64,000 nt of DNA from the IMG/VR virus record IMGVR_UViG_3300045988_092303; one strand, given 5' to 3'. A program made the translations under genes and the position numbers. This stretch comes from a virus. Positions within the stretch are counted from its first letter, which is position 1, and the number at the start of each line of letters is the position of its first letter. Of the stretch, positions 7,551-45,623 are shown one piece after another. The notes beneath the pieces are model-generated. The model searched no databases. It was not told the origin of the DNA and saw nothing but the letters and a program-made list of their open reading frames with translations.

Positions 7551-7579
7551 TTGACAAATTGAAAGATTATGGATATTAT
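7551..7579 (+). promoter_or_regulatory. Sigma70-type promoter of leader L1 and terS
   Basis: TTGACA, 17 nt, TATTAT. Confidence 0.65.
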
Positions 7580-7585
7580 TATAAC

Positions 7586-7746
7586 TAAATTAAGCCGAGG
7601 CGCGCAGGTTCTCCCGGAGTCCGTAGAGGGATAAAAGAGCCGATCAACGCGAGAGGAAGCAAGAGCAAGGACGGACAGAAACACAAGCAAAGTGAAGCAC
7701 GCTCGTAGATCAGACTTTAACAGGTCTTTTCTACGGGCGTTTTTTA
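7586..7746 (+). ncRNA. Leader RNA L1 (about 160 nt) ending in an intrinsic terminator; homolog of L2 at 36705-36855
   Basis: No ORF. Blocks AGCAAGGACGG, GAAGCACGCTC and GGGCGTTTTTT are identical in L2. Terminator stem 7700-7709 / 7730-7739 followed by T7. Confidence 0.6.
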
Positions 7747-7778
7747 TTTCCCGGAAATCACAGAAGGAGGTGCAGAGC

Positions 7779-26539: not shown

Positions 26540-26860
26540 ATGGAAATTCTAATTCAAGGTGACAATAAACCAATCATAATTGAATTTGATGAATCGGTCG
26601 AAAATGTTGAGCAATTTAGCGCAATGTTAAGTTATGAATCCCATGAATTTAAAAAATGGGATGAAAACGATGTTAAAATTGAAGGGACTACCATTTCTCT
26701 GCCACTTACACAGGAAGAATCGCGTGGTATAACCAGTCGATACGCAGACCTTGAAATTAAGCTCGTTGCAAACGGAGATATTGAATTTTTCGATGTAATA
26801 CGTTTTGAAATATTATCTCGTAGAGATAAAAGAATATTTCAGATTGGCGGTGAATTATGA
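26540..26860 (+). CDS. Hypothetical protein upstream of the fibre gene
   Basis: ORF track. Confidence 0.55.
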   Translation: MEILIQGDNKPIIIEFDESVENVEQFSAMLSYESHEFKKWDENDVKIEGTTISLPLTQEESRGITSRYADLEIKLVANGDIEFFDVIRFEILSRRDKRIFQIGGEL

Positions 26861-28743: not shown

Positions 28744-28757
28744 TAAATGACTAATCA

Positions 28758-28795
28758 GGGGCAATAGGTGTTACAGCCTACTGCCCCCTTTTTTG
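28758..28795 (+). terminator. Intrinsic terminator between fibre gene and TMP
   Basis: GGGGCAATAGG / CCTACTGCCCC stem followed by T6. Confidence 0.8.
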
Positions 28796-28867
28796 CTTAT
28801 AACAAGCAACCGAACACTGTTTGAAGTGTTCGCTAACCATCTAAAAACTAATGGTGGAGGTGATAAA

Positions 28868-30209: not shown

Positions 30210-31548
30210 TGACTTTAGCGGCTTAACACAGAAATGTGTTTTGAAAAATCCGGAGAACGCAAGCAAAAGCGGTGTCAGAAGAAATTCTGGCTAACGGTAA
30301 AACTCTAAATTTGTATTTGCAATCTTCTTTATTTACTGTGCAAATTCGGTTATAATAATCATGAAAGGATATGGTTATTATGGAATTTGGGCAGGAAAAG
30401 AAATATTATGTATATGCTTGGTTTTACAAGCAATCAGGAAAATTATTTTATATTGGGAAAGGAACAAAATATAGATATCGTTCAAAGAAAAGAGATAATC
30501 ATAAACTTGTGGATATAATAAATTCTTGCGATTGTGACTCTAAAATTCTGGAAGGGAATCTTACAGAAGAAGAAGCCTATGATCTTGAAAAAGAGATGAT
30601 AAAGAAATATCGGTCACTTGGACATCCTTTAATAAATATTCAAGATGGAGGGCATCTTCCCCCTAATCACTCTGGCACACATAAAAGTGAAGAAGCAAAA
30701 AGGAAGATGAGTGAGAGTAGAAAAAAATATTTCAAAAATCATCCAGAGGCAAGAATAGAAGCTTCCGAAAGAATGAAAGATTTTTTCTTAACAGAAGAAG
30801 GAAAAGAATTTCAGAAAAAGTCTATAGAAGCAAGAAACAATGATGAGTTTAGAATGAAGTTATCCGAAAAATGTAGGAAAGCAAATAACACAGAAGAATA
30901 TAAAAATCGTCAATCCCAAATAATCAAAAAAAGATGGGAGTCTAAAGAATATGCAGATTCCTTTAGCGGAGAGAACAATCCTAATGCTCAGGCGGTTAGA
31001 CAGTATGACTTGAGTCATAATTTCATAGCAGAATATCAAACGATGGCAGAAGCAAGCAAAATTACCGGAGTTGGCCAGAGCAAAATTTCCTTGGTTTCAA
31101 GTGGAAAAAGGAAAACAGCAGGTGGATATATTTGGGAATATGCAACTGACAAAAGAATTTCCTACAAGAGAACGAAATCTACATATGATGTAAAAAAAGA
31201 TAAATCCGCAATTCCTATTTTGCAATATGATTTATCTGGAAAACTTGTCTCAGAATACAATAGCGTTGCAGAAGCAGCAAGAATAAATAATTTTCCAAAT
31301 AGAACTAATATTTCCACAAATTTGAGAGGAAGATCAAAAAGCGCATACGGCTTTGTATGGAAATACAAACATGACAATACCGTGCCGAGCCAATTAAAAA
31401 CCACCAATTGAGGTGGTTTTTTTATTGGAAGGTGTAACGACTAATTGTAGGGCGGAGATTAGCACCGCTCGAAGTACCGGAAATCCTTTTAGGATTGTGA
31501 GATAGTCTAATCCCCTAATAAATATCGGGAAACCGAGGGTAGTTAATG
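30210..31548 (+). mobile_element. Group I intron carrying a GIY-YIG homing endonuclease gene
   Basis: P1 CCGU (30206-30209) pairs with GCGG (30218-30221), giving U.G at the splice site. Last intron nt is G31548. P7 GACTA (31439) / TAGTC (31503); P8 AAATCC-tttt-AGGATT. Joining gives an in-frame 1347-aa TMP. Confidence 0.7.
30380..31411 (+). CDS. GIY-YIG homing endonuclease (I-TevI-like, NUMOD3-like linker, two C-terminal IENR1/NUMOD1-like HTH repeats)
   Basis: ORF track (30371-31411); YVYAW..GKLFYIGKGTKYR; repeats VRQYDLSHNFIAEY...GGYIWEY and ILQYDLSGKLVSEY...YGFVWKY. Confidence 0.85.
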   Translation: MEFGQEKKYYVYAWFYKQSGKLFYIGKGTKYRYRSKKRDNHKLVDIINSCDCDSKILEGNLTEEEAYDLEKEMIKKYRSLGHPLINIQDGGHLPPNHSGTHKSEEAKRKMSESRKKYFKNHPEARIEASERMKDFFLTEEGKEFQKKSIEARNNDEFRMKLSEKCRKANNTEEYKNRQSQIIKKRWESKEYADSFSGENNPNAQAVRQYDLSHNFIAEYQTMAEASKITGVGQSKISLVSSGKRKTAGGYIWEYATDKRISYKRTKSTYDVKKDKSAIPILQYDLSGKLVSEYNSVAEAARINNFPNRTNISTNLRGRSKSAYGFVWKYKHDNTVPSQLKTTN

Positions 31549-34250
31549 TAAGAAAGTACGGACTCGATTTAACGCAGGCTACTCTGAAAGAGTGGGCAAT
31601 GAAGAACGGCATGGATGCTGATATTAAGTCCATGACGCAGTCAGAAAAGGCAATGTTGCGGTATCAGTACGTCCTAGCAAATACCACGGCAGCACAAGGG
31701 GACTTCGCCAGAACAGCCGATAGCTGGGCCAATCAGGTACGAATTTTGAAGCAGAACTTCCAGCAGTTAGGCGGCATTATTGGTGGGGCACTGATTAACG
31801 CATTCAAACCGTTTTTACGGACTCTGAATTTTGTTATGCAAAAGGTAATCAGTTTTGCAACAATGGTAACAAATGCCCTTGGCGCAATATTCGGCTGGAA
31901 ATTTGAAGTGTCCGGCGGTGGTGTAGCTGATGACTGGTCAGATGCGGCAAGTTCAGCTGATGATCTGGCAGACAGTACCGGTAAAGCAGCTGACAATACA
32001 AAGAAGATGAAAACCAACCTTCTGGCTATTGACGAATTAAATGTACTTAACCCGGATGATTCAGATTACGGTTCCGGCGGTTCTGGTTCCGGTGCAGGTG
32101 GCGCAGGTGGCGGTGCAGGTGGTCTGGTTAAGACAGACACTATCTGGAAAGATTTTGAGAGTAATATCAAAGATCTGTATCAGCTTGGTGAGTATATACG
32201 TGATGCACTTATCGGTGCAATGGAAAGCATTGACTGGGACAGTGTGTATGAAAAAGCACGAAACTTTGGAACTGGCTTAGCACAGTTTCTTAATGGACTC
32301 TTTGCTGATGCTAACGGTATTACGCTTTTTGGAGAAGTCGGAAAAACCATTGCAAGCGCGCTGAACACAGTGATCTATGCAGCACTGGCGTTTGGACAGG
32401 AATTTGATTTTACGCAATTTGGATATAATATAGCAGATGGAATTAACCATTTTTTTGAAACATTCGATTTTGCTTCTTTAGCTGAAACTCTTAATGTATG
32501 GGCAAATGGAATTTTAAATGCTGCACAAGAAGCAGTAAGTGCTGTGCATTGGAATGAAGTGTTTAAAGGAATTGGTACTCTGTTTTTCAATTTGGACGCA
32601 ACTGCAATAGTCGAGGTGCTTGCACTTGGATTTGCTTGGAAAAATAAAGCTAAAATATTAAAAATGGCTGGTCTTTCTTTAGCAAAAGTGTTTGTTGGCG
32701 GAATTAAACTATCAGATATTTTAGTATCTATAACAAAATTGAGTTTTGTTCTTCCTGGAACACCTGCTTTTGATGTAATCGCAAGCAGAATTCTCGATAC
32801 GTTAAGTGATTGCCTTAGAAACTTGATTCCAGATTGGGCATTCGAAGCATTGAGTAAAATAGGTGCAGGATTAGTACTTGGTGCGGCTGGTGGTTCTTGG
32901 CTTCCTGGCCTTGGAACTATTGCAGGTGCAATTGTTGGAGGAATTGTAGGTGCATTAGATTCGATTGAAATTGATGGACAAAGTATTCTTCAAAATATCT
33001 TTGGAAAAATTTTCAATTTTGATACCACAATGGTGTTTTTTGAATCTGCCAAAGAAAATTTTAAAAAAGGCGGATTATATATAATTCTTGGGATTATTGA
33101 AGGAATCGAAGGTGCTATCAGCCTTTTACTAGAGCCAATCGCAGATGTGTTTACTTCTGTTATCGAATTTTTTTGCAATGTGTTTGGAATCCACAGTCCT
33201 GCTGAAACAATGAAACCAATTGGAGAAAATATTATCAGAGGTATAATTGTCGGTTTTAGTGAAACAGTTGGAGAATTTCTTGTTGAATTCCAAAGCCTTG
33301 CAACTTCTGTTACAGATTATTTGAATGAAAATTTAATTGTTCCGGTAGTAGAAATATTCACTATAGCCAGCCAGAATATAGAAAATTTGTTCAGTAATGC
33401 GTGGATAGCAATACAAGGAATTTGGTCTGTAGTATCAGCATGGTTTAATTCTACGGTGATCGTGCCGACTGTAAATTTCTTTACTACCATGAAAAACACT
33501 GTAACTAATCTTTTCCGATTACTGTGGACAGCTGTTCAAAATATCTGGATTGTTGTATCATCATGGTTTAACAACAACGTTATTGTGCCGACGGTAACAT
33601 TTTTCACAAAGTTCTACGAAAAAGTGAAAAAATTATTCTCTGATTTGTGGTCAAATGTGCAGGAAATCTGGAAAGTGGTTTCCGGCTGGTTTAGTGATAA
33701 TGTTATCACTCCGGTATCAAATTCATTTTCAGAAGCATGTAAAAATATTGCATCATACTTTGAAAATTTGTGGAAAAATGTGAAAAATGGCGTTGTCGGT
33801 GCTATGAACGTAGTCATTCAATCTGTAGAAAAAGCGGTTAATGGCGTTATTTCTATGCTGAATACGTTGCACTGGGAAATCCCGGACTGGGTGCCGGAGT
33901 TTGGTGGAAGATCGTTTGGTTTTCATATTAAACCTATAGCTTTGGAAAGAATCCCGATGTATGAAGTCGGAGGTTTCCCGGAGGACGGCTTGTTCTTTGC
34001 TAATCACAATGAAATGGTTGGTCAGTTCTCGAATGGCAGAACTGCAGTAGCAAACAATGAACAGATCGTTGCCGGAATCCGTGAAGGTGTTAAGGCTGCG
34101 GTTACGGAAGCACTGGCTCCTTATCTGTCAGACATTGCAGATACAAACCGGGAGATTGCCGAGAAGGATGCATCCATCAATGTGGATGGCCGGGAACTGG
34201 TTAATGCGATTAACAGCCGGATTAGCCGGAACGGTTTCAGTTTCACGTAA
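31549..34250 (+). CDS. Tape measure protein, exon 2
   Basis: Frame open from 31506; (L)RKYGLDLTQATLKEWAMKNGMDADIKSMTQSEKAMLRYQYVLANTTAAQGDFARTADSWANQ is the canonical TMP core. Confidence 0.8.
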
Positions 34251-34256
34251 AATTAA

Positions 34257-34290
34257 GGCGGTGGGGTAAAACCTGCCGCCTCTTTTCTTT
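34257..34290 (+). terminator. Intrinsic terminator after the TMP
   Basis: GGCGG..CCGCC stem followed by TCTTTTCTTT. Confidence 0.7.
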
Positions 34291-34342
34291 TACCTTTTTT
34301 CGTGGTATAATCTGCATATATTTTCATGGGAGGAAAAGTTGT

Positions 34343-34966
34343 ATGGAGAAGAAAGAAACAAAATTATGTAAATATTGCCAGACGGAAATTCCAAAAAAAG
34401 CAAAAGTTTGTCCTAATTGCAAACGCAGGCAGGGCGGAATAGGATGTTTAGGTGTTGTTTTGCTAGTTTTAGGTGTTTTCATTTTTATCGGCTCGTTTGG
34501 TGCTTCTATGAGCAAGGATAAAAATCCGGAAAAGGTAGGAGAAGTTGGAACTGAACTTTCTGAAACTGGAACGCAGACAATTGACAATACTTTCAATGTT
34601 GGTGATGTAGTAGAAACTGATAATTTTAGAATCACCTATGAGTCTGCCGGAGAGTACACAGACAGCAATGAGTTTTTACAGCCGAAAGACGGATATGTAT
34701 ACTGGGAGTTTAAATTTAAATTTGAGAACATTTCCAATACAGATCAAACAGTTTCCACCATGATGGACTGGGAATGTTATGCGGATAATTCAAAAGCAGA
34801 TCAGACATGGATTGTTGATGATAATGGACTTGACGGAAAATTATCTGCCGGAAGAGAAGCAGAAGGAGCTGTGTATTTTGAGGTTCCCAAAGATGCTGAA
34901 AACATTGAACTTGAATATGATATTAACTTCTGGCAAAGTGACAAAATTATTTTTGTTGGGAAGTAA
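34343..34966 (+). CDS. Zinc-ribbon + TM + DUF4352-like extracytoplasmic domain protein (moron; possible superinfection exclusion)
   Basis: ORF track; CKYCQTEIPKKAKVCPNCK, TM GCLGVVLLVLGVFIFIG, beta-rich C-terminus; terminators on both sides. Confidence 0.5.
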   Translation: MEKKETKLCKYCQTEIPKKAKVCPNCKRRQGGIGCLGVVLLVLGVFIFIGSFGASMSKDKNPEKVGEVGTELSETGTQTIDNTFNVGDVVETDNFRITYESAGEYTDSNEFLQPKDGYVYWEFKFKFENISNTDQTVSTMMDWECYADNSKADQTWIVDDNGLDGKLSAGREAEGAVYFEVPKDAENIELEYDINFWQSDKIIFVGK

Positions 34967-34974
34967 CAGTTTTT

Positions 34975-35002
34975 GGGGCAGAGAAATCTGCCCTTATTTT
35001 TT
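34975..35002 (+). terminator. Intrinsic terminator
   Basis: GGGCAG / CTGCCC stem followed by T run. Confidence 0.8.
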
Positions 35003-35013
35003 TGTAAAAAAGT

Positions 35014-35042
35014 GTTGACTAAATGTCATGACAATTATATAA
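35014..35042 (+). promoter_or_regulatory. Consensus-like sigma70 promoter
   Basis: TTGACT, 17 nt, TATAAT. Confidence 0.7.
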
Positions 35043-35074
35043 TACAATTAAATCAAATGAAAGGAGCGGATGAA

Positions 35075-35254
35075 ATGTCACCTAGAAATGGTAGACCACC
35101 ATCAGAAAACCCAAAATCTCATAGAGAAAGTTTTCGATTATCTGATGATGACATGATGAAGTTAAATTATTGCATGGAAAAAACCGGAATGAAGAAAACG
35201 GAAGTCATCAGAAAAGGCATTGATTTGGTCTATAATAAACTAAAAAAGGAGTAA
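35075..35254 (+). CDS. CopG-type ribbon-helix-helix protein
   Basis: ORF track frame; ATG at 35075 after AAAGGAG; GRPPSENPKSHRESFRLSDDDMMKLNYCMEKTGMKKTEVIRKGI. Confidence 0.6.
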   Translation: MSPRNGRPPSENPKSHRESFRLSDDDMMKLNYCMEKTGMKKTEVIRKGIDLVYNKLKKE

Positions 35255-35369
35255 CCTACGTGTACTTGGCGGTATCAGGGTTACTCCAATGGGACACATC
35301 CACAAGGGATATGCACTAATACTGTAGCATACCTCTTGTGGAAAATCAATATTTCACAGGAGGTTTTTT

Positions 35370-35534
35370 ATGGTAACAGAACAGTACAAAGCATTATTAT
35401 CTCAACTTACAGAGGAATGCGATAACGCATTATATCTTCGTAGCGCAGTTATTTTCATGGCAACACTGAATGACAAGGAACTGACGGAATCTGATGGTGT
35501 TCTCAAAATTACGAAGAAAGGCGGTGCTCATTGA
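35370..35534 (+). CDS. Tiny ORF a (54 aa)
   Basis: Own translation; SD AGGAGG; ends ..KKGGAH. Its AAAGGCGGTG tail is the SD of the next ORF. Confidence 0.45.
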   Translation: MVTEQYKALLSQLTEECDNALYLRSAVIFMATLNDKELTESDGVLKITKKGGAH

Positions 35535-35686
35535 TGGAAGAGAACAGAAAGAAAATTCACGAGATGGTTGACTGCATGGACACTGACGGGAGGTTAGCAT
35601 ACTGGGAGACATTCATGAGACGCTGGTTAGAATATTGGGGGCATGGATGCTTGGACAACATGGGAAAGAAAGGCGGTGTGCAGTAA
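35534..35686 (+). CDS. Tiny ORF b (50 aa), paralog of ORF c
   Basis: Own translation MEENRKKIHEMVDCMDTDGRLAYWETFMRRWLEYWG..; TGATG overlap. Confidence 0.5.
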   Translation: MEENRKKIHEMVDCMDTDGRLAYWETFMRRWLEYWGHGCLDNMGKKGGVQ

Positions 35687-35808
35687 TGGAAGAAAACAGA
35701 AAGAAATTGCATGAAATGGTTGACTGTATGAACACCGAGGAAATGCTTGCCTACTGGGAGACTTTTATGAGGCTCTGGCTGGAAGAGTGGGGAGGTGACT
35801 GTTTATGA
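35686..35808 (+). CDS. Tiny ORF c (40 aa), paralog of ORF b
   Basis: Own translation MEENRKKLHEMVDCMNTEEMLAYWETFMRLWLEEWG..; TAATG overlap. Confidence 0.5.
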   Translation: MEENRKKLHEMVDCMNTEEMLAYWETFMRLWLEEWGGDCL

Positions 35809-35939
35809 GTTACAAAGAAGAGATTGTTAAGATGCTGGAATGTATCAGCAATGAGCGGATTTTGAAACTCATTTACGGATTTGTCCGTAGCGGTTACAGA
35901 GAGGACAGAGCAATGAAAGGCGGTGCCAGAAATGACTGA
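35805..35939 (+). CDS. Tiny ORF d (44 aa), same family as the ORF at 44983-45093
   Basis: Own translation MSYKEEIVKMLECISNERILKLIYGFVRSGY..; ATGA overlap. Confidence 0.5.
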   Translation: MSYKEEIVKMLECISNERILKLIYGFVRSGYREDRAMKGGARND

Positions 35940-36681
35940 TATTCAGATTTTTAATAACCCGGATTTTGGAGACATTAGAACCGTTGAGGTTGACGGAAAA
36001 CCATATTTTGTTGGAAGAGACATTGCAAAAGCATTAGGATATAGTGACCCGCACAAAGCAGTATCCCGGCACTGTAAGGGTGGGATGAAATATCCCATAG
36101 GGGTGCAAACTGGTACGGGAGCTGATGGAACACCGATAATACAGGATATAGATATGCTTATCATTTCAGAAGGTGATGTTTACAGACTCATTATAAAGTC
36201 GCAGTTGCCGGCAGCAGAAAAGTTTGAAGGATGGGTAATGGATGAAGTCCTCCCGGCAATTAGGAAGAACGGCTCTTACACCATGCCGATCAGCACCAAC
36301 GACAAGATCATGCTTCTTGCGCAGGGACATATGGAGTTGCAACAGGAGGTTGACAGCATTAAGAAGGACATGGAGAGTCTGAAAATGGATTTACCGATTC
36401 TTCCAGTAGAGGAAGACCGGATAACATCCGCTGTGAAGCGCAAGGGACTGGCTGTGATGGGCGGTAAGACCTCTAATGTGTACCGGGATAAATCCATCCG
36501 CCGGAAGGTGTATCAGGGCATCTATGCGAATTTGAAGTACAACTTCCAGATCAAGACCTATCGGGCATTGAAACGGAGTCAGGTGGACAAGGCTATTGAG
36601 ATCATCAATAACTACCAGCCGCCGTATGTTCTGGCAGAACAGATAGACTCTGCAAATGCACAGCAGACCTTGATATTCTAG
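35932..36681 (+). CDS. Antirepressor-like protein (Bro-N domain + ORF6C-like C-terminal domain)
   Basis: ORF track; IQIFNNPDFGDIRTVEVDGKPYFVGRDIAKALGY. Confidence 0.8.
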   Translation: MTDIQIFNNPDFGDIRTVEVDGKPYFVGRDIAKALGYSDPHKAVSRHCKGGMKYPIGVQTGTGADGTPIIQDIDMLIISEGDVYRLIIKSQLPAAEKFEGWVMDEVLPAIRKNGSYTMPISTNDKIMLLAQGHMELQQEVDSIKKDMESLKMDLPILPVEEDRITSAVKRKGLAVMGGKTSNVYRDKSIRRKVYQGIYANLKYNFQIKTYRALKRSQVDKAIEIINNYQPPYVLAEQIDSANAQQTLIF

Positions 36682-36698
36682 GGAAAAACTGCTATAAT
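36670..36698 (+). promoter_or_regulatory. Sigma70-type promoter of leader L2
   Basis: TTGATA, 17 nt, TATAAT; overlaps the end of the previous gene. Confidence 0.65.
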
Positions 36699-36704
36699 AA
36701 AATC

Positions 36705-36855
36705 AAATTCAGCCGAATCCATCAGCTCCGCCCGGCTTGTCGTTGAGGGGAGAACGGGGCGAAAAGGATAGGACGAATCGAGCAAGGACGGCAAACATTT
36801 TGAGAAGCACGCTCACTGGACATGGTAGAGATACTGTGTCTGGTGGGCGTTTTTT
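36705..36855 (+). ncRNA. Leader RNA L2 (about 150 nt) ending in an intrinsic terminator; homolog of L1
   Basis: Shares blocks AGCAAGGACGG (36781), GAAGCACGCTC (36804) and GGGCGTTTTTT (36845) with L1. Terminator stem 36810-36822 / 36837-36849. Confidence 0.6.
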
Positions 36856-36886
36856 GTTTGTCTGAAAAATGGGAGGAAAGGGAAAA

Positions 36887-37609
36887 ATGGAAGAAACGAA
36901 GATTTTTAAGAGCGAAGAGTTTGGAGAAGTTAGAACTGCTGTGATCGACGGTGAAGCATGGTTCGTTGGCAAGGACGTTGCGGATATTCTTGGGTACCAG
37001 AATGGAAGCAGGGACATCAATGCACACGTAGACGATGAAGACAGAAGAATTATCAAAAGTACCGAAACGGTATCTTTGGATATTCCAAGTAGAGGAATGC
37101 TTTTAATCAATGAGTCAGGTCTCTACAGCCTTATTCTTTCAAGTAATATGCCGAACGCAAAGAAATTCAAAAAGTGGGTGACATCAGAGGTACTGCCGTC
37201 CATCAGAAAACATGGCATCTATGCCACTGACAATGTGATCGACAACATCCTGAATAACCCGGACTTTGGCATTGAGCTTCTTACAAAGCTGAAAGAAGAA
37301 CGTGCAGCAAGGGTAGAAGCTGAGAAAAAGAATGCGATCCTTACCCATGTGAATAAAACATATACCATGACCGAGATTGCGAAGGAACTGAATCTGAAAT
37401 CTGCCGTGGAGCTGAACAAAATCCTGGCGGATAAGAAGATCCAGTACAAGGTGAATGGAACATGGGTACTTTATTCCGATTATAGCAATCTTGGGTACGA
37501 AGATATCAAGCAGGAAGTCCTTGACAACGGAAGGGTGATTTATCACCGGAAGATCACACAGATGGGACGGGCATTTATCCTTGGACTTTTTGAGGACAAG
37601 GCGTCATAA
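36887..37609 (+). CDS. Antirepressor (Bro-N + KilAC domains)
   Basis: ORF track; ATG at 36887 after GGGAGGAAAGGG; KIFKSEEFGEVRTAVIDGEAWFVGKDVADILGY; KilAC-like C-terminus. Confidence 0.8.
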   Translation: MEETKIFKSEEFGEVRTAVIDGEAWFVGKDVADILGYQNGSRDINAHVDDEDRRIIKSTETVSLDIPSRGMLLINESGLYSLILSSNMPNAKKFKKWVTSEVLPSIRKHGIYATDNVIDNILNNPDFGIELLTKLKEERAARVEAEKKNAILTHVNKTYTMTEIAKELNLKSAVELNKILADKKIQYKVNGTWVLYSDYSNLGYEDIKQEVLDNGRVIYHRKITQMGRAFILGLFEDKAS

Positions 37610-37614
37610 AGATT

Positions 37615-37661
37615 AGCAGTAGTCAGTGGTTTATGGAGGTTCGACTCCTCCGGCTGCTTTT
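37615..37661 (+). terminator. Terminator hairpin containing a perfect tRNA T-arm plus acceptor-like stem (tRNA 3'-half mimic)
   Basis: AGCAG...GGAGG-TTCGACT-CCTCC-GG-CTGCT followed by TTTT. Confidence 0.55.
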
Positions 37662-37662
37662 A

Positions 37663-37721
37663 CAACTGGATAGGGTAGCTCCCGAAGAGCGGAAATCCTA
37701 CACCGCCTGCCAGTTGTTTTT
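37663..37721 (+). terminator. Second long hairpin terminator
   Basis: CAACTGG (37663) / CCAGTTG (37710) followed by T5. Its interior holds a 19-mer that is the exact reverse complement of 854-872. Confidence 0.55.
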
Positions 37722-37758
37722 CATAAATGTAGGAGTCTATTTGTAGGAGGTAGAGTAT

Positions 37759-38493
37759 ATGGAAAGAAAATCAAGAAAATTAGCAACAGAAAAGCAAATT
37801 TTATATGCAAATGCAATTGCAAAATCCCTTGAAATTGATTTGTGTTTTAAAAATGGTGATCCATATTATACGGTTTCAAAATTTATTAAAGAAAATGAAG
37901 AATACTATAAAGAAAATATCAAAATGGCAACACCAAGACAAATTGATTATGCAAATGCTATTTCTGACGAACTTAAAATCGAAAAGAAATTTGATGAAAC
38001 TGCTCTTGCAAAAGATGTTGCAAAATTTATAAGCGATCATGGAGAGGAATTTGCCCTGAATTGTGCAAAAAAGAAATATTTGGAAGAAAAAGTTGGATAT
38101 ATAAATAAAAATGGAGAATTTATTAGTTTTCCATTTGAATGTTGCGAATTTATGAGCGAAAACTTATATGGAAAACATGGAGTATATGCATTTTTAGATG
38201 GTTCTGAAAATGTAGTCTATATAGGAAAATCCATAAATCTCGCAGATAGAATAACAGGTTCATACCATGAAAGACAAGATGGAAGAATCGAAAAAATCAT
38301 GTATTACACAGATGAAAGTATGGCAAATGCTCATGTTTTGGAACTTATTTTGATAAACAAATATAAACCGATTTTTAATACGGATTGCAAATCTGATGAT
38401 GATTTTACTTTATTTCCATGCGATATAAGCATTGAAAAAGATTTTAAAGTTCTTCCGTATTTTTCAAATAAATGTAAGGAGGTAAATGCATGA
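37759..38493 (+). CDS. GIY-YIG domain protein with two N-terminal ATxxQIxYANAI repeats
   Basis: ORF track; GVYAFLDGSENVVYIGKSINLADRI; repeats ATEKQILYANAIAKSLEID and ATPRQIDYANAISDELKIE. Confidence 0.65.
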   Translation: MERKSRKLATEKQILYANAIAKSLEIDLCFKNGDPYYTVSKFIKENEEYYKENIKMATPRQIDYANAISDELKIEKKFDETALAKDVAKFISDHGEEFALNCAKKKYLEEKVGYINKNGEFISFPFECCEFMSENLYGKHGVYAFLDGSENVVYIGKSINLADRITGSYHERQDGRIEKIMYYTDESMANAHVLELILINKYKPIFNTDCKSDDDFTLFPCDISIEKDFKVLPYFSNKCKEVNA

Positions 38494-39500
38494 ATTACAA
38501 AGAGCTTTTATACAACAAAGATGCTGCATTAACCTTCTTTCCTAGACTGGCCGTAATTTTTAATAAATACGATGACATTGAGTCAGAGAAAGTTTTTCGT
38601 GAGACAGGGGAAAAAAGAAAATCTGATAAAAGTGGTCTTTCAAAAGCAATTGTTATTAACCAGCTTAATTACTGGTTAGGTATTAACCAGAAGAGTGGTA
38701 ACAATTTTAGAGATGGTTATTACTGGACGTATAATACATATCAAATGTGGGCGGATAATGACTTCGTTTTTTGGTCTGCTGATACCGTAAAACGGGTATT
38801 TACTTCCCTAGAAAAAATCGGAGTTGTTGTTTCTACGTCAGCATATAACAAACTTAGACTTGATAAAACAAAGTGGTACAGGATTGATTATGATAGATTG
38901 CAGGAAGTTATTGACACCGTAGAAGAAGACGAAAAAACACGAGCAGTGCAATGTGCACCGTCGAGGAGGGCAATGTGCACCGTCGAGGAGGGCAATGTGC
39001 ACCATAGAGGAGGGCAACTTGCACCGAGCAATACCATAGACTACACAGAGACTTCTTCAGAGACTACATCAGAGAGTATGAGAGTATGCTCTTTTTCAGC
39101 GGAAAAAGAGGTCTCTCCCACATCTGAAGGTGGTACGTTATCTCCTACGGTCACAAAAGCCATTGACGAGGCAATGACGGAAGAAGGAGAATCTCCAGAT
39201 AGCTTCTGTAGAGCCGAATTGAAGGATATAGCTGAATACTTTGTAAGCGAATATGCCAGAACGCAAGGAAAGCCGCATAAGCCACTCACAAGACCGGCTA
39301 TTAGCAATATCGTATACAATTACTTGCATCAAGACGAGGACGAATACGGAATCATGGATGATGTGTGGACGCTAGACCAGTACATTCCGTTAATTGATAT
39401 GTATATGCAGACGAACTACCGGGAGGGCATAGAAAAGAGCCTGTCCCACTTTATGTCCGGTTCTATCCGCCGGAATTTAAAAGCAAAATTGATAGAGTAA
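38490..39500 (+). CDS. Putative replication initiator (winged-helix N-terminal domain) containing iterons
   Basis: ORF track; AIVINQLNYWLG...YWTYNTYQMWADN..FWSADTVKRVFTSLEKIGVV...KTKWYRIDYD; internal 22-bp DNA repeats. Confidence 0.5.
   Translation: MNYKELLYNKDAALTFFPRLAVIFNKYDDIESEKVFRETGEKRKSDKSGLSKAIVINQLNYWLGINQKSGNNFRDGYYWTYNTYQMWADNDFVFWSADTVKRVFTSLEKIGVVVSTSAYNKLRLDKTKWYRIDYDRLQEVIDTVEEDEKTRAVQCAPSRRAMCTVEEGNVHHRGGQLAPSNTIDYTETSSETTSESMRVCSFSAEKEVSPTSEGGTLSPTVTKAIDEAMTEEGESPDSFCRAELKDIAEYFVSEYARTQGKPHKPLTRPAISNIVYNYLHQDEDEYGIMDDVWTLDQYIPLIDMYMQTNYREGIEKSLSHFMSGSIRRNLKAKLIE
38948..39035. repeat. 22-bp direct repeats x3.5 (GCAATGTGCACCGTCGAGGAGG): iteron-like ori candidate
   Basis: R1 38948-38969 equals R2 38970-38991; R3 has 2 mismatches; R4 is partial. 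The 22-nt period is not a multiple of 3, so this is not a peptide repeat. Confidence 0.7.
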
Positions 39501-39598
39501 GAATCATACCGGGTGCCGACGACGTAGGCATCCGCTAACCAGAAAAAGATACTGGCAGACTGCCGGAGGGCACTTCTGCCGAGAACGGAGGTGCCTGT

Positions 39599-40012
39599 AT
39601 GGCAACAAAAATAGTACGAGCAGGTTCCGGCCTGTCTTCTTTCTTGAATGTGAACGGGGTAGATTTCCCGTGCCCTAGGGTGGGATTTTCGTATATTATC
39701 AGCACAACGGTAAATGCAGGGCGAAATGCGAACAATGCGGTTATTGGCCAGAGAGTAGGAAGAGACATTTTTAAACTGAACAATTTGGAATGGGCAATGC
39801 TGGATGCAGAAACATGGCAGCGGATGTTAAAAGCAATTAAACCATTTTATGTGCCGGTAACTTTTGAAGATTATCGGACAGGTCGTCCGATCACCATTAC
39901 AATGTATCCGGGAGACAGGACGGCAACACCATTATTTGCAGACCCGGATTCTCACATTGTTACAAAGTATGAAAACTGCAAATTCAATCTGATTGATGCC
40001 GGTTGGGAGTGA
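39599..40012 (+). CDS. Small tail protein (putative distal-tail/baseplate component)
   Basis: ORF track; SD GGAGGTG; assigned by position. Confidence 0.4.
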   Translation: MATKIVRAGSGLSSFLNVNGVDFPCPRVGFSYIISTTVNAGRNANNAVIGQRVGRDIFKLNNLEWAMLDAETWQRMLKAIKPFYVPVTFEDYRTGRPITITMYPGDRTATPLFADPDSHIVTKYENCKFNLIDAGWE

Positions 40013-40018
40013 TAGATC

Positions 40019-42322
40019 ATGCAAAATGTAAGTGCAGCATATAAAAAGGCCATGCGACAACCGATGCGGAACCGTGGCTATATAACTGCCCGAATCGGAA
40101 TTATCAGTTCCACAGCGCAGGATAACGTAGTTGCAAAAGAATCTGATAATGATTTTGCTTACTTTGCGAATATCACGGAAGTGTTCAAAGATAACACAGT
40201 AAGCCGGGTATATGCCACCATGGAGCAGGATTTCGCAAAGGTTGACGGAACCATGTACTTCCTTCCAGAGGAATACGACGGGTATGACTACTACAATAAT
40301 GGTCTGGTGACGAATGAGCTGCTAAGTCCCATGTACATTTCCTTTGACGGAAACATTGCGGATATTAAGGGACTCACAATTGATTTTGGGGAATACTACC
40401 CGACTTCATTTACGGTTCAGTCTGATAACGGTACGAAAACATATGAAAATGCAGGGAAAATATTTGTTACCGAGGATACATTTGATGCGGTAACGTTCCT
40501 GCGGATAACACCTGTGACTATGGTTAATGGACAGGGAAGGATGCGAATTTTACAGTTTACCTGCGGAATTTCCAATACTTTCTCAAATAAGCAGGTGAAA
40601 TCATTCACATATAAAGATTACGTATCGTCTGTATGCGAGTCCCTTCCGAGTCAGGATATGACTTTGACGGTAGATAATCAGGATTTATATTATAACCCGG
40701 ATAACCCGGAATCAGCCGTTGCATACATGGAGCAGGGGCAGGAAATGAAAGTTTCCTTCGGATATGACATTGACGGAGCTGGAACGATTGAATGGGTGCC
40801 GGAAATAACCACATTCCTTAAATCGTGGTCGGCGACCGATACAGAAGCTAAATTTACTATGGTTGATGTATTTAACTGGAAACTAAATGGAACGTATTAC
40901 AAGGGTCTGTACCGCACGGAGGGCATATCTCTGTATGATATGGCGTTGGATGTTTTGACAGATGCCGGCATGAAGCCAGAAGAATATGTGATCGACCCGT
41001 ATTTGCATGATGTCAAGGTATACAATCCTATGCCCGCGGTGAAACATTCAGAGGCCTTGCAGATCATATCGAATGCCGGACGCTGCGTTTTAAGCGTTGA
41101 CCGGAAAGGAAGGGTACTGATTAGATCATCTTTTATCCCGGATATGACTTCCAGTGACGGAATAGATTTGCTGTATCCAAGTAATTTCCTGTATCCGGGA
41201 GAAGATGTACTACCGATAGGGGACAACGGGACGGCAGCACAAACAGAATTCAGCCATGCAGAAAATGTTCTGAAATCAGGAAAGCGGACAGCATATGCAA
41301 TGTTCAGTAACGATTTTTCCGTGGTAGATGGAACGGTGATGTTTCTTCCAGAGTCAGAAGCGGATTATGTTGATACGACTGGATATGTCAGTGATAGCAT
41401 AGCGGATGAAAACGGGGAGTTTCAGGACATACCAAAAATTATCATCGAATTGGAGTCTGGATATATTTGTTACGGTTTTGCTATTCAATTCCGGAATGTG
41501 GCACCTAAAGAATACCACGTAGTAACCTACTATCAGGAAGAACAGGTGCAGGATGTAACGGTCGAAAATCCTGGATTATACAGCCAGTACACAGAACAGC
41601 TTGACCGGTTCGACGTCATGGAGATTGTGTTCAAGAAAGGTTACCCAAATGCCAGAGTGGCGGTTGACTCGGTATTGTTCGGAAATGCAACAGATTACAC
41701 GCTGTCAAGAGATTACAATTTGAAGGGTTCACCGACTGCAACAAGACAAGAAAGAGTCAAAACGATTGCAGTTAAGCGAAGCCTTTACAGAAATTCTACA
41801 TTGGCAATTAAAGAATTATCGTCAGAAGAACTCACGCTGGCCGGAACAGAGATCACGAAAACGATTCATTTTAGCAAAGCGTCATACGGTCTTACAGTGT
41901 CCATAGAAGAGGGGACTGCAACGGCAACGATTACTGCCAGCAGCAACTACTTCGCAGATATTAAGATCACAGGAGCAGCCGGCGAAAAAATCAGATATTC
42001 TGTCAAGGGATATGAATATGTTGTGGATGAACTGTATTACAGAGTCAACCACAATGACACAGGAATTGAAAAAGCATGGAGCAATCCTCTAATCAGCACC
42101 GAAGAGCTGGCAAAAGATCAGGAAGAATGGCTTGCATCCTACTATCTGGGTGATGTAGATTATCAGATCACATGGAATGGAGACCCACGGACGGATGCGA
42201 ATGATCTTTTCTATCTGGAATTAAAAGAGAGAGACAACACGATGATACGAGCCTACCAGAATGAGTTGAAATATAGCTCCGGATGGTCAGGCACTTTAAA
42301 GGCAAGAAAGGTGGTGCTGTAA
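40019..42322 (+). CDS. Large tail/baseplate protein (Tal-like) with an internal duplicated segment
   Basis: ORF track; 767 aa; repeats ..MEQDFAKVDGTMYFLPEEYDGYDY.. and ..MFSNDFSVVDGTVMFLPESEADYVD.. Confidence 0.5.
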   Translation: MQNVSAAYKKAMRQPMRNRGYITARIGIISSTAQDNVVAKESDNDFAYFANITEVFKDNTVSRVYATMEQDFAKVDGTMYFLPEEYDGYDYYNNGLVTNELLSPMYISFDGNIADIKGLTIDFGEYYPTSFTVQSDNGTKTYENAGKIFVTEDTFDAVTFLRITPVTMVNGQGRMRILQFTCGISNTFSNKQVKSFTYKDYVSSVCESLPSQDMTLTVDNQDLYYNPDNPESAVAYMEQGQEMKVSFGYDIDGAGTIEWVPEITTFLKSWSATDTEAKFTMVDVFNWKLNGTYYKGLYRTEGISLYDMALDVLTDAGMKPEEYVIDPYLHDVKVYNPMPAVKHSEALQIISNAGRCVLSVDRKGRVLIRSSFIPDMTSSDGIDLLYPSNFLYPGEDVLPIGDNGTAAQTEFSHAENVLKSGKRTAYAMFSNDFSVVDGTVMFLPESEADYVDTTGYVSDSIADENGEFQDIPKIIIELESGYICYGFAIQFRNVAPKEYHVVTYYQEEQVQDVTVENPGLYSQYTEQLDRFDVMEIVFKKGYPNARVAVDSVLFGNATDYTLSRDYNLKGSPTATRQERVKTIAVKRSLYRNSTLAIKELSSEELTLAGTEITKTIHFSKASYGLTVSIEEGTATATITASSNYFADIKITGAAGEKIRYSVKGYEYVVDELYYRVNHNDTGIEKAWSNPLISTEELAKDQEEWLASYYLGDVDYQITWNGDPRTDANDLFYLELKERDNTMIRAYQNELKYSSGWSGTLKARKVVL

Positions 42323-42323
42323 T

Positions 42324-42731
42324 ATGGCGTGGATTCAGCCTAAAACAAACTGGGCGGTTGGAGACCGGTTCAATATATCGGATTACAACAGGATTAAGGG
42401 AAATCTGAATTTTTTACACGAACGAGCGGAAGAGCTTTACCCGGATTTCAAAATCATCAATATGGGAGCGGATAAAGGATATTCCGATTACCCATATGCC
42501 CGTGAAATCAATAATTTTGAGAAGAACCTGGAAACAATCAACGATAATGTTTTCACACAAGATTTTGGTGTAACAGCAACATTCTACAGCAATGGGGCTT
42601 TTATTCAGTGGAACGAACTGAACCGGATAGAGTCAGGCATTTTAAGCATTTATGAAATGTTGAATAGGCAGGAAGCGGGACTTCCGGTGCTGTCATTCAG
42701 ACTTGGTAATATGAGAGGAGTGAAGTTGTGA
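42324..42731 (+). CDS. Tail fibre-associated protein
   Basis: ORF track; assigned by position. Confidence 0.45.
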   Translation: MAWIQPKTNWAVGDRFNISDYNRIKGNLNFLHERAEELYPDFKIINMGADKGYSDYPYAREINNFEKNLETINDNVFTQDFGVTATFYSNGAFIQWNELNRIESGILSIYEMLNRQEAGLPVLSFRLGNMRGVKL

Positions 42732-43183
42732 TGTTAAAGACGGATTACAAAGATGATATTATTGCTAACGGAACAAAGAGAAAGTACACGCAGACAACAA
42801 ATTCTGACGGGACGATCTCTTTGACTGATGCTACGGAGTATCAGCAGGAGGGAGACAATTTTGGAGCAAAGGACATCAATGATACAAATATCGTTGTTAA
42901 TGGATTAAAAGGAGTCAAAGAAGCAGCTTTACTGGCTGCAGGATGGACGGGATCCGAAGCACCATATCAGCAGATCGTATTAGTTGATGGAATAAAAGAG
43001 GATGATTCACCGATACTTGTAAGTTTGTTAGCTGATGGAGCGTCAGAAGCAACGCAGAAAGCTTACAGTAAGGCTTTTGGAATTGTTTCTTCTGGAACAG
43101 GGACAACCTCTGCAGGAAGTGTCACTTTCAAAGTATACAAAAAACCAGCCACGGATATCACGGTCGGCTTGAAAGGAGTATAA
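42731..43183 (+). CDS. Tail fibre/baseplate accessory protein
   Basis: ORF track; ATG at 42731. Confidence 0.45.
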   Translation: MLKTDYKDDIIANGTKRKYTQTTNSDGTISLTDATEYQQEGDNFGAKDINDTNIVVNGLKGVKEAALLAAGWTGSEAPYQQIVLVDGIKEDDSPILVSLLADGASEATQKAYSKAFGIVSSGTGTTSAGSVTFKVYKKPATDITVGLKGV

Positions 43184-43186
43184 TCT

Positions 43187-45593: not shown

Positions 45594-45623
45594 TGTTTTA
45601 CAATCAACAAGGAGGTGAGGAAA

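What the first reader, a model, noticed from the sequence alone, without database searches (positions are those of the whole stretch)
34251..39598. 5.3 kb autonomous-looking island with its own replication initiator and iterons between the tape-measure and distal tail genes
In siphoviruses the distal tail protein gene normally follows the TMP directly. Here the junction holds terminator-bounded units in this order: a zinc-ribbon/TM/DUF4352-like moron; a consensus promoter plus RHH; four translationally coupled tiny ORFs; two Bro-N antirepressors; the L2 leader; a double terminator with a tRNA T-arm mimic; a GIY-YIG protein; and a winged-helix replication-initiator-like gene carrying 22-bp iterons. 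No other initiator, helicase or primase is visible in the 45-64 kb replication/recombination module. Either the phage keeps its ori and initiator inside the tail operon, or this is a hitch-hiking replicon (satellite-like or moron island) inserted in the phage.
Basis: inference. Interest (0 to 1): 0.65.

Follow-up and report, generated by a model that had tools for sequence, protein, structure and literature searches.

The report
Phage replication origin beside tail-tip genes
The stretch between the tape-measure gene and the tail-tip genes holds this gut phage's own replication-origin cassette, buried among swappable accessory genes, and it is not a separate parasite; the cassette is an ordinary kind sitting in an unusual place.

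Summary
The listed features are real. The exception is the 'L2 leader', which is an unannotated structured RNA unit (E1).

**Initiator and origin.** The 336-aa protein (38490-39500) matches phage initiator families (E 6e-28). Four 22-bp iterons (38940-39026) encode its disordered inter-domain linker, as in lambda O.

**What relatives show.**
- Relatives keep a near-identical C-terminal domain but carry five different N-terminal domains.
- Two of these types show their own iteron arrays at the same spot.
- The initiator always lies directly upstream of the tail-tip genes.
- In one sister group the whole initiator-plus-tail-tip block is inverted and lies next to the CI-like repressor gene.
- Two other groups lack the initiator at this site.

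**The mobile unit.** It is [tRNA or tRNA remnant] - int-alpA RNA - [optional GIY-YIG or HNH nuclease] - initiator. In other phages this unit sits in the usual early region.

**Against a satellite.**
- There are no flanking repeats and no integrase in the island, and its overall composition matches the phage.
- Relatives encode a helicase loader, a Phg_2220_C protein, an integrase and an excisionase just beyond the window end.

**Verdict.** This is the phage's own origin cassette, relocated into a hypervariable junction: a new variant of a known kind.

The parts
34256..34281 (+). Terminator-like hairpin closing the tape-measure gene
   Evidence: 10-pair stem, 7 G-C pairs, followed by a T run.
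34343..34966 (+). Zinc-ribbon / transmembrane / DUF4352 accessory gene, linked to the tape-measure gene
   Evidence: Pfam DUF4352 3.2e-17 and a weak Zn_Ribbon_1 hit. It stays next to the tape-measure gene in most group 2 contigs (five of six), where the initiator block is inverted. A terminator follows at 34975-34994.
35015..35254 (+). Near-consensus promoter (35015-35043) and RHH repressor-like gene (35075-35254)
   Evidence: TTGACT-17-TATAAT, 11 of 12. phrog_876 transcriptional repressor 3.8e-16. Present or replaced in relatives.
35370..35939 (+). Four translationally coupled tiny ORFs (54, 50, 40 and 44 aa); the second and third are tandem duplicates
   Evidence: Overlapping stop and start codons read. 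152-nt period, 78% match. No family hits. Different subsets occur in relatives.
35932..36681 (+). Bro-N + ORF6C anti-repressor-like gene
   Evidence: Bro-N 3e-23, ORF6C 3e-31, phrog_463 1.6e-69.
36659..36867 (+). E1: promoter (36670-36698) + about 155-nt structured RNA + 19-pair terminator (36809-36850).
   Evidence: Promoter and terminator. Fold z-score -4.0. 78-93% identical in groups 1-3 and present but more diverged in group 4 (nhmmer 2e-24). 12 of 47 pairs show compensatory changes. No Rfam match.
36869..37609 (+). Bro-N + KilAC (ANT) anti-repressor-like gene, inserted between E1 and int-alpA relative to group 2
   Evidence: Bro-N 7e-29, ANT 1.3e-13. In group 2, E1 and int-alpA lie 10-34 nt apart with no gene between them. 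A Rha gene occupies this slot in L004.
37616..37662 (+). tRNA 3'-half remnant (T-arm 37635-37651 plus acceptor strand): the 'T-arm mimic'
   Evidence: Sequence read. In L198 and L099 a complete tRNA sits at exactly this position, immediately before int-alpA.
37663..37729 (+). int-alpA RNA (RF02996), terminator-shaped leader of the initiator cassette
   Evidence: 47.5 bits against a gathering score of 35.8. The same motif lies 24-48 nt upstream of the first cassette gene in 9 other loci. 10 of 14 pairs are compensatory.
37759..38493 (+). GIY-YIG nuclease with two N-terminal repeats, probably a free-standing homing endonuclease, translationally coupled to the initiator
   Evidence: Catalytic residues invariant. 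GC 28%, GC3 0.17. The slot holds an HNH nuclease in L203 and is empty in group 2. Homologues always sit directly upstream of an initiator gene.
38490..39500 (+). Replication initiator: N-terminal winged-helix origin-binding domain, disordered linker, lineage-specific helical C-terminal domain
   Evidence: PHROG initiator and DnaD-like families. AlphaFold pLDDT about 90 for residues 20-154 and 214-336, below 50 for 155-213. Top fold matches are all winged-helix proteins but not significant. Five N-terminal types sit on one C-terminal domain.
38940..39026 (+). Four 22-bp iterons (consensus GCAATGTGCACCGTCGAGGAGG): the candidate origin
   Evidence: L203 has an equivalent array. Type B initiators carry their own 23-nt iterons at the same relative position, and only type B loci have them.
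39599..42322 (+). Tail-tip genes p137 (phrog_1194, Dit position) and p767, always directly downstream of the initiator
7577..7758 (+). E1b, a second copy of the E1 RNA unit, ahead of the block that runs through the tRNAs to the terminase and structural genes
   Evidence: nhmmer E 5.8e-9. It has its own TTGACA-17-TATTAT promoter and its own terminator, with compensatory changes relative to E1.

Best explanation
The region is a hypervariable junction of a temperate gut siphophage, not one island. Part of it is the phage's own lambda-O / SPP1-G38P-type origin cassette.

**The cassette.** tRNA remnant (37616-37662), int-alpA RNA (37663-37729), GIY-YIG nuclease (37759-38493), initiator (38490-39500) with four 22-bp iterons in the DNA that encodes its disordered linker.

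**Proposed mechanism (all steps inferred).**
1. The N-terminal winged-helix domain binds the iterons.
2. The conserved C-terminal domain recruits phage proteins encoded about 30 kb away in relatives: a Phg_2220_C protein and a G39P-like helicase loader. These load the host helicase.
3. Transcription enters from the E1 promoter and must pass two terminator-shaped RNAs, E1 and int-alpA, before it reaches the initiator and then the tail-tip genes.
4. The GIY-YIG gene is most likely a free-standing homing endonuclease that has landed in the slot before the initiator.

**What is shown rather than inferred.** Homology, the iterons, domain swapping with matching iterons, synteny, the block inversion, RNA covariation and composition.

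**Origin of the arrangement.** The cassette was probably relocated from the usual early position next to a tRNA cluster.
For: **Initiator and iterons**
- Initiator homology; the same families hit the canonical-position homologues.
- Iterons far beyond chance, lying in the predicted disordered linker.
- Five N-terminal domains on one 85-97% identical C-terminal domain.
- Type A and type B each have their own iterons at the same relative place, and type B iterons occur only in type B loci.

**Linkage to the tail-tip genes**
- The initiator is directly upstream of p137 in groups 1 and 2 and in L203, and stays so when the block is inverted.
- A distant clade has the order tape-measure, Rha, int-alpA, GIY, initiator, two further genes, phrog_1194 gene, tail protein.

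**Cassette structure and mobility**
- int-alpA precedes the cassette in 10 of 10 loci tested with Rfam, with covariation.
- A tRNA sits directly upstream in canonical contexts and a remnant sits here.
- The nuclease slot holds GIY-YIG, HNH or nothing.

**Partners and lifestyle**
- Phg_2220_C (3.5e-27), G39P-like loader (4.3e-9), excisionase and integrase (3.8e-76) lie just beyond the window end in relatives.
- The Phg_2220_C protein is 98-100% identical across groups 1 and 2.

**Composition**
- No compositional break except the GIY gene and the initiator's N-terminal half.
Against: - No replication assay exists, and the host is unknown (no relatives in 185,579 reference genomes).
- No clear AT-rich unwinding element adjoins the iterons: the flanks are at most 72% AT.
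- The C-terminal domain matches no known family, so its partner is a guess.
- The loader genes are seen only in relatives, because the window ends before that region.
- Groups 3 and 4 lack the initiator at this junction. This lineage can therefore do without it there, and where those phages keep an initiator was not found.
- Fold matches are not statistically significant (best E 0.1).
- The consistent pairing of GIY homologues with initiator genes in three contexts could mean a replication role rather than homing.
Confidence: 0.68

Rival explanations
1. A hitch-hiking replicon: a satellite or PICI-like element, or a selfish replicon island, inserted in the phage and replicating for its own benefit.
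For: - The initiator cassette is mobile. It sits in other positions in other phages and is absent from this junction in groups 3 and 4.
- It is accompanied by a repressor-like gene, anti-repressors and a nuclease.
- The GIY gene and the initiator's N-terminal half have low GC.
- The int-alpA motif is named after its neighbourhood in integrative elements.
Against: - No integrase, no flanking repeats and no packaging or capsid-redirecting genes.
- Overall composition equals the phage's.
- The pieces vary independently among relatives rather than as one unit.
- The C-terminal domain is lineage-conserved together with distant phage genes.
- No other origin binder was found in the rest of the genome.
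- The cassette stays glued to the tail-tip genes even when the block is inverted.
Confidence: 0.07
2. A plasmid-prophage maintenance replicon: the initiator and iterons maintain the prophage as a low-copy plasmid during lysogeny, while lytic replication uses recombination functions (RecT, SbcC-like, SSB).
For: - In group 2 the initiator is co-oriented with the CI-like repressor gene and immediately downstream of it.
- A small serine recombinase (8933-9505) could serve as a dimer resolvase.
- No integrated copy of this lineage was found in reference genomes.
Against: - Relatives encode a tyrosine integrase and an excisionase.
- No partition genes were seen in any scan.
- A related sub-lineage lies inside a 221-kb contig, which suggests integration.
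- Two terminators separate CI from the initiator.
Confidence: 0.08
3. The 'initiator' is now a DNA-binding regulator of the tail-tip operon (an ex-initiator), and the repeats are its operators.
For: - It always lies directly upstream of the tail-tip genes.
- Groups 3 and 4 have a non-coding repeat array in the same place and no initiator.
- The C-terminal domain is not a recognisable DnaD or DnaB_2 domain.
- No obvious AT-rich unwinding element.
Against: - Full-length homologues at 36-41% identity sit in the ordinary early replication position, far from tail genes.
- N-terminal swapping with matching iterons inside the gene is the classic initiator-origin pattern.
- Otherwise the genome would have a loader and a Phg_2220_C protein but no origin binder.
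Confidence: 0.08

Closest known systems
Phage lambda O protein and ori-lambda (lambdoid replication modules)
   Same: - Iterons lie inside the initiator gene, in the DNA that encodes the linker between two domains.
- The N-terminal domain and the iterons are exchanged together among relatives, while the C-terminal domain is conserved.
- Several PHROG 'replication initiation O-like' families hit weakly (1.9e-8 to 1.3e-3).
- The lambda facts are textbook knowledge, not tested here.
   Different: - The gene sits between tape-measure and tail-tip genes, not in the early operon next to the helicase-loader gene.
- There is no adjacent AT-rich region.
- The C-terminal domain is unrelated by sequence.
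- The cassette is preceded by a structured RNA and a nuclease gene.
Bacillus phage SPP1 G38P / G39P / G40P system, and DnaD-like 'replisome organiser' initiators of Firmicute phages (phrog_6493, phrog_11233, phrog_428)
   Same: - Best sequence matches for the N-terminal domain.
- Relatives encode a G39P-like loader (PF11417, 4.3e-9) and a Phg_2220_C protein.
- SPP1 also has an origin inside its initiator gene and a second origin far away (from memory).
   Different: - The usual single protein (phrog_428, 455 positions) appears split. The window protein covers profile positions 98-219, and a separate 160-aa protein about 30 kb away covers 223-313.
- No phage helicase was found.
Phage-inducible chromosomal islands and other satellites
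   Same: A compact set of regulator genes, an initiator with iterons and accessory genes. The RNA motif carries a name taken from int/alpA neighbourhoods.
   Different: No integrase, no att repeats, no packaging or interference genes, and not a unit in comparisons.
Free-standing homing endonucleases of phages (T4 seg and mob genes)
   Same: - An intergenic nuclease gene that is present or absent between near-identical alleles.
- Strong compositional outlier.
- Two unrelated nuclease families use the same slot.
   Different: - Its homologues are always next to an initiator gene in three diverged contexts.
- It carries two conserved N-terminal repeats of unknown role.
- Cleavage was not tested.
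int-alpA RNA motif (Rfam RF02996)
   Same: Passes the family's gathering score here and in nine related loci, and covaries as the model predicts.
   Different: Here it is consistently the leader of a phage initiator cassette and often follows a tRNA. No function for it was found in the library papers searched.
Lambda late leader (PR' - 6S RNA - tR'), an analogy for E1 only
   Same: A strong promoter, a short RNA and a strong terminator placed ahead of late gene blocks, in two copies per genome.
   Different: The E1 RNA structure is conserved and covaries, which suggests an RNA-based role. No antiterminator gene was identified. This is an analogy from memory, not a membership claim.

Membership tests
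Iteron-type phage initiator with intragenic origin (lambda O / SPP1 G38P kind) | Protein homologous to known origin-binding initiators | tested here: met
   phrog_6493 5.9e-28, phrog_11233 1.8e-20, phrog_428 1e-12, and O-like families.
Iteron-type phage initiator with intragenic origin (lambda O / SPP1 G38P kind) | Three or more direct repeats inside or beside the gene | tested here: met
   4.0 copies of 22 bp; 0 expected in shuffles; equivalent array in L203.
Iteron-type phage initiator with intragenic origin (lambda O / SPP1 G38P kind) | DNA-binding domain and repeats change together among relatives | tested here: met
   Type B initiators have different 23-nt repeats at the same relative position, found only in type B loci. 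Types C, D and E show only weak A-rich repeats.
Iteron-type phage initiator with intragenic origin (lambda O / SPP1 G38P kind) | AT-rich unwinding element next to the repeats | tested here: inconclusive
   Flanks are 55-72% AT, with no sharp AT-rich block.
Iteron-type phage initiator with intragenic origin (lambda O / SPP1 G38P kind) | Supports replication; the protein binds the repeats | not testable with these tools
   Needs a plasmid replication assay and binding assays.
Phage satellite / PICI-like island | Own integrase and flanking attachment repeats | tested here: not met
   No integrase among the island genes. No direct repeats flank 34.25 and 39.6 kb.
Phage satellite / PICI-like island | Present or absent as one unit among close relatives of the carrier | tested here: not met
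   The pieces vary independently, and the initiator stays with the tail-tip genes.
Phage satellite / PICI-like island | Genes that hijack helper packaging or capsid | tested here: not met
   None in Pfam or PHROG scans of all island ORFs.
GIY-YIG nuclease superfamily | Catalytic Tyr, Tyr, Arg, Glu and Asn | tested here: met
   Y143, Y154, R164, E195 and N207 are invariant in 28 homologues. The Pfam hit is below threshold (20.6 against 22.6 bits).
Free-standing homing endonuclease | Presence/absence polymorphism at one intergenic site between otherwise matching alleles | tested here: met
   The same leader, ribosome-binding site and ATG are followed by GIY here, by HNH in L203, and directly by the initiator in group 2.
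Free-standing homing endonuclease | Cleaves the endonuclease-free allele | not testable with these tools
   Needs an enzyme assay.
int-alpA RNA (RF02996) | Score at or above the curated gathering score, with the model's helices supported | tested here: met
   47.5 against 35.8 bits; 10 of 14 pairs are compensatory in 6 sequences.
   A permissive Rfam scan of 28000-44000 gives only a chance-level miRNA hit there.

The most novel reading that the evidence does not exclude
The block from E1 to the tail-tip genes (E1 promoter and RNA, int-alpA, initiator with origin, then the tail-tip genes) is a self-contained 'replication plus host-range' cassette with its own RNA-gated transcription unit. It would be exchanged and inverted as one piece between phages. 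The two terminator-shaped RNAs, E1 (an undescribed family with a second copy ahead of the packaging and structural genes) and int-alpA, would form an antitermination or attenuation switch. That switch would couple origin firing to late gene expression.
Probability: 0.18. Interest if true: 0.7.

Novelty: new variant of a known kind. Interest (0 to 1): 0.5.

Why it matters
**Genome mining.** The origin and origin-binding protein of a widespread group of human-gut temperate phages lie in the middle of the tail genes. They stay physically tied to the tail-tip (host-range) genes even when that block flips. Genome-mining rules that look for replication genes only in the early region would miss this.

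**A function for int-alpA.** The work gives a concrete genomic role to an orphan RNA motif. int-alpA is the leader of an initiator cassette and often follows a tRNA.

**A new RNA unit.** It points to an undescribed promoter-RNA-terminator unit (E1) ahead of both major late blocks.

**Testable examples.** The five-way swap of the N-terminal domain at a fixed junction, and the nuclease landing slot at the start codon, are clean natural examples of how replication specificity is exchanged. Both are directly testable once a host is found.

Tried and rejected
- **Rfam on the 'L2 leader' and on the tape-measure insertion.** No leader family and no group I intron model matched.
- **Close phages in GenBank.** None. 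The only DNA match is a 64-nt piece of the tape-measure insertion.
- **Hosts or prophages in 185,579 reference genomes.** Two scans, with p767 and with the tape-measure N-terminal part, found nothing. Host and integration site remain unknown.
- **GIY relatives in IMG/VR by exact peptide patterns.** None. They were found only through the large protein database.
- **PDB by sequence for the initiator, p137 and p767.** Nothing useful.
- **Fold search with the initiator model.** Winged-helix proteins top the list, but none is significant.
- **Programmed inversion by the phage's serine invertase.** No inverted repeats lie at the block boundaries, and the two arrangements differ by more than a flip. 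I treat the inversion as an evolutionary rearrangement.
- **Co-transfer of the GIY gene with the low-GC N-terminal half of the initiator.** Rejected. L203 has a 94% identical initiator (the N-terminal domain is almost unchanged) with an unrelated HNH gene in the slot.
- **Flanking direct repeats for an inserted element.** None.
- **AT-rich unwinding element.** Not evident.
- **Late-gene activator or antiterminator that might act on E1.** None recognised.
- **Literature on origins inside tail modules and on int-alpA.** Nothing relevant in the library.
- **Not done.** A structure for p137 or p767 was not predicted, because the listed homologues were too similar to each other. Their tail-tip role rests on synteny and neighbouring tail-protein hits.

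Full report
**1. What is in the window**

Almost all genes from 6 kb to 64 kb are on the + strand.
- The region upstream of the finding holds the terminase (phrog_38) and then portal, head and tail genes.
- Next come a lysin-like gene (25808-26524), a collagen-like fibre gene (26857-28743) and the tape-measure gene.
- The tape-measure gene is split. Exon 1 ends near 30207 and exon 2 resumes near 31538.
- Between the exons lie a homing-endonuclease ORF (30371-31411, phrog_314 2.5e-16) and a terminator.
- Relatives L001-L003, L005, L014 and all of group 2 have the uninterrupted gene. L004 has the insertion.
- Downstream of the finding, p137 (39599-40012) belongs to phrog_1194. A more distant member (L105) has a weak DUF6711 hit.
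- In two cultured phages, Eggerthella EL753P1 and Streptococcus Javan253, the p137 homologue follows the tape-measure gene within about 20 bases and precedes a large tail protein.
- In related loci the genes that follow p137 hit 'tail protein' phrog_6616 (6.8e-165) and Gp10_C.

**2. The listed features**

All are present, as set out in the observation check. Two labels change.
- The 'L2 leader' matches no Rfam family. It is a unit of promoter (TTGATA-17-TG-TATAAT, 36670-36698), about 155 nt of structured RNA (fold z-score -4.0) and a 19-pair terminator (36809-36850). I call it E1.
- The 'double terminator with a T-arm mimic' has two parts. The first is the 3' half of a tRNA (37616-37662). The second is the Rfam int-alpA RNA (37663-37729, 47.5 bits).

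**3. The initiator and the iterons**

- The 336-aa protein hits DnaD-like, 'replication initiation' and O-like PHROG families through residues 45-209. It has no Pfam hit.
- AlphaFold, run with 43 homologues, gives two confident domains (residues 20-154 and 214-336, pLDDT about 90). They are joined by a disordered stretch, 155-213.
- The best fold matches are all winged-helix DNA binders, but none is significant.
- The four 22-bp repeats (38940-39026) fall in the DNA that encodes that disordered stretch. None is expected by chance.
- No sharp AT-rich block adjoins them.

**4. Relatives**

IMG/VR and the large protein collection give four groups that share the tail-tip genes.

| Group | Loci | Similarity to window | State of the junction |
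|---|---|---|---|
| 1 | L001-L005, L014, L203 | p767 96-97% (L203: identified through its 94% identical initiator) | Same order as the window |
| 2 | L008-L012, L016 | p767 about 65% | Initiator plus tail-tip block inverted |
| 3 | L006, L007, L015 | p767 about 75% | No initiator |
| 4 | L205-L208 | p137 81% | No initiator |

Main results:
- (a) In groups 1 and 2 the initiator's C-terminal domain, from '...RVCSFS' onward, is 85-97% identical. It is fused to five unrelated or distantly related N-terminal domains.
- Type B has its own three 23-nt repeats at the same relative position, and these occur only in type B loci.
- L203, whose initiator is 94% identical to the window's, has a 22-bp array that differs by about three bases in the consensus unit.
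- (b) The initiator gene is always directly upstream of p137.
- (c) In group 2 the block runs E1, int-alpA, initiator, p137, p767, p135 and the start of p151.
- That block is inverted in place, between the tape-measure/DUF4352 end and the CI-like repressor gene.
- CI, E1, int-alpA, the initiator and the tail-tip genes then share one strand, opposite to the rest of the structural genes.
- This arrangement is seen in contigs from two sample sets (3300045988 and 7000000352).
- There are no inverted repeats at the boundaries, and extra sequence differs, so it is not a simple programmed flip.
- (d) Groups 3 and 4 have no initiator at the junction.
- They do keep E1, an anti-repressor-like gene, and a non-coding array just upstream of p137. 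The array has GAACCACC-type repeats followed by AAGAATGT repeats.
- (e) The rest of the island (Rha, DUF4352, RHH, tiny ORFs, Bro/ANT/ORF6N genes, even a collagen-like fibre cassette in L002) differs from contig to contig.

**5. The cassette is a mobile unit with a fixed leader**

- Rfam finds int-alpA at gathering level 24-48 nt upstream of the first cassette gene in ten loci: the window, L003, L008, L009, L011, L099, L105, L198, L201 and L203.
- Ten of 14 predicted pairs show compensatory changes across six diverged copies.
- In L198 and L099 a complete tRNA gene ends just before the motif. In the window and in L004 only the T-arm and acceptor strand remain.
- L198-L201 carry full-length initiator homologues (37-40% identity) in the conventional place: after the Cro-like switch, a MazG-like gene and a tRNA cluster, and before the terminase.
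- That stretch is syntenic with window 7.7-15 kb, where the tRNA cluster remains but the initiator does not.
- L198 shares a terminase that is 83% identical to the window's.
- The simplest history is a move of [tRNA end, int-alpA, initiator] into the junction. This is an inference.
- A more distant clade (L103-L106) has the order tape-measure (phrog_1535 2.9e-23), Rha, int-alpA, GIY homologue, initiator, two genes, phrog_1194 gene (2.6e-38), tail protein.
- Its initiator is HTH_36-type, its C-terminal domain is 32% identical to the window's, and it has mid-gene tandem repeats.

**6. The nuclease slot**

- The leader, the ribosome-binding site and the ATG after int-alpA are the same in the window and in group 2.
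- What follows the ATG differs: the GIY gene in the window, an HNH gene in L203 (phrog_119 9.4e-12), and the initiator itself in group 2.
- The GIY gene has 28% GC (GC3 0.17) against 41% for the window.
- Its catalytic residues are invariant in 28 homologues.
- These facts fit a free-standing homing endonuclease.
- As a caution, GIY homologues at 41-47% identity sit 2-3 nt upstream of an initiator gene in two further diverged contexts (L099-L102 and L103-L106). A role in replication cannot be excluded.

**7. The rest of the replication machinery and the lifestyle**

- In the window's larger ORFs I found SbcC-like, RecT, SSB, HNH, methyltransferase, Tad3 and other genes.
- I found no helicase, primase, loader or second initiator.
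- The window is not the whole genome. In relatives, about 7 kb lies between the homologues of the window's last and first genes.
- That stretch encodes five notable products:
  - a 160-aa Phg_2220_C protein (also phrog_428 positions 223-313);
  - a G39P-like helicase loader;
  - an excisionase;
  - a tyrosine integrase;
  - an HNH nuclease.
- The window initiator covers phrog_428 positions 98-219. What is usually one protein therefore appears here as two genes about 30 kb apart.
- The Phg_2220_C protein is 98-100% identical across groups 1 and 2. This parallels the conserved C-terminal domain of the initiator. An interaction between them is my inference.
- The integrase and excisionase argue for an integrating temperate phage.

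**8. E1**

- E1 is 78-93% identical across groups 1-3, where neighbouring genes are about 80% or less. Group 4 has a more diverged copy (nhmmer 2e-24).
- A second copy, E1b (7577-7758; nhmmer 5.8e-9), has its own TTGACA-17-TATTAT promoter and its own terminator.
- E1b lies just ahead of the ORF that opens the long block running through the invertase gene and the tRNAs to the terminase and structural genes.
- With E1b and group 3 included, 12 of 47 pairs show compensatory changes.
- A strong promoter, a short RNA and a strong terminator ahead of late blocks recalls the lambda late leader. No antiterminator gene was recognised, and the conserved RNA structure suggests an RNA-based mechanism. This part is a hypothesis.

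**9. Weighing the readings**

- The satellite reading fails every defining test I could run: no integrase, no att repeats, no unit-like presence or absence, no hijacking genes.
- The plasmid-prophage reading draws some support from the CI-initiator arrangement in group 2 and from the lack of integrated copies in reference genomes. It is opposed by the integrase and excisionase, the missing partition genes, and a related prophage lying inside a 221-kb contig.
- The 'regulator of tail-tip genes' reading is opposed by homologues sitting in ordinary replication positions.
- The best reading is that this is the phage's own origin cassette: a known kind, in an unusual and evolutionarily stable position, inside a junction that also collects accessory genes.

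**10. Limits**

- No experiment exists and the host is unknown.
- The partner genes are seen only in relatives.
- Where groups 3 and 4 keep their initiator is unknown.
- The roles of E1, int-alpA and the GIY nuclease are inferred from position, conservation and covariation only.

Noticed in passing
window 30208-31537 (ORF 30371-31411): The tape-measure gene is interrupted by a roughly 1.33-kb intron-like insertion that carries a GIY-YIG/NUMOD-type homing endonuclease. Close relatives have the uninterrupted gene. No Rfam group I intron model matches.
   Followed up: partly
window 31489-31552: 64 nt at the 3' end of that insertion are 89% identical to unannotated DNA in about 200 Herelleviridae genomes (Listeria, Staphylococcus and Enterococcus phages). 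It may be a shared intron core.
   Followed up: no
window 7577-7758 and 36659-36867: Two paralogous copies of an undescribed unit (E1b and E1): near-consensus promoter, about 155-nt structured RNA and a strong terminator. Each sits ahead of a major late gene block. There is covariation support and no Rfam match.
   Followed up: partly
window 37663-37729; L003, L008, L009, L011, L099, L105, L198, L201, L203: The orphan int-alpA RNA motif is consistently the leader of a phage initiator cassette. It directly follows a tRNA gene or a tRNA remnant in several loci.
   Followed up: partly
L006 9327-9472; L205 about 9700-9940: Related phages without the initiator at this junction have a non-coding array of GAACCACC-type repeats followed by AAGAATGT repeats just upstream of the p137 homologue. 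It could be an origin or an operator region.
   Followed up: partly
window 4790-4855 (- strand): Type II hammerhead ribozyme, 59.6 bits against a gathering score of 37, next to the - strand ORF 4858-5460, which has no family hit.
   Followed up: no
window 8933-9505: Small serine recombinase of the invertase/resolvase type (Resolvase 1.4e-43, phrog_125 3.3e-63). I found no inverted repeats linking it to the inverted block of group 2.
   Followed up: partly
window 26540-28743; L002 6711-7579: The collagen-like fibre cassette lies before the tape-measure gene in the window. A diverged homologue (about 40-50% identity) lies between the Bro gene and the initiator in L002, and the cassette is absent at the window's position in group 2, so it moves as a unit.
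   Followed up: no
window 57880-58413: Tad3, a Thoeris anti-defence protein (PF25185, 1.4e-37).
   Followed up: no
window 10516-11753: Cluster of six tRNA genes, one with an unassignable anticodon loop at 11381-11454. The cluster is syntenic with tRNA clusters that precede the initiator in L198-L201.
   Followed up: partly
window 45615-46136, 52888-53265, 54703-55278: Three further HNH endonuclease genes are scattered through the early region. Together with the intron endonuclease and the GIY gene, this makes the genome unusually rich in selfish nucleases.
   Followed up: no
L099 3105-3186: RAGATH-27 RNA (81 bits) in an unrelated phage contig that carries a GIY-initiator pair.
   Followed up: no
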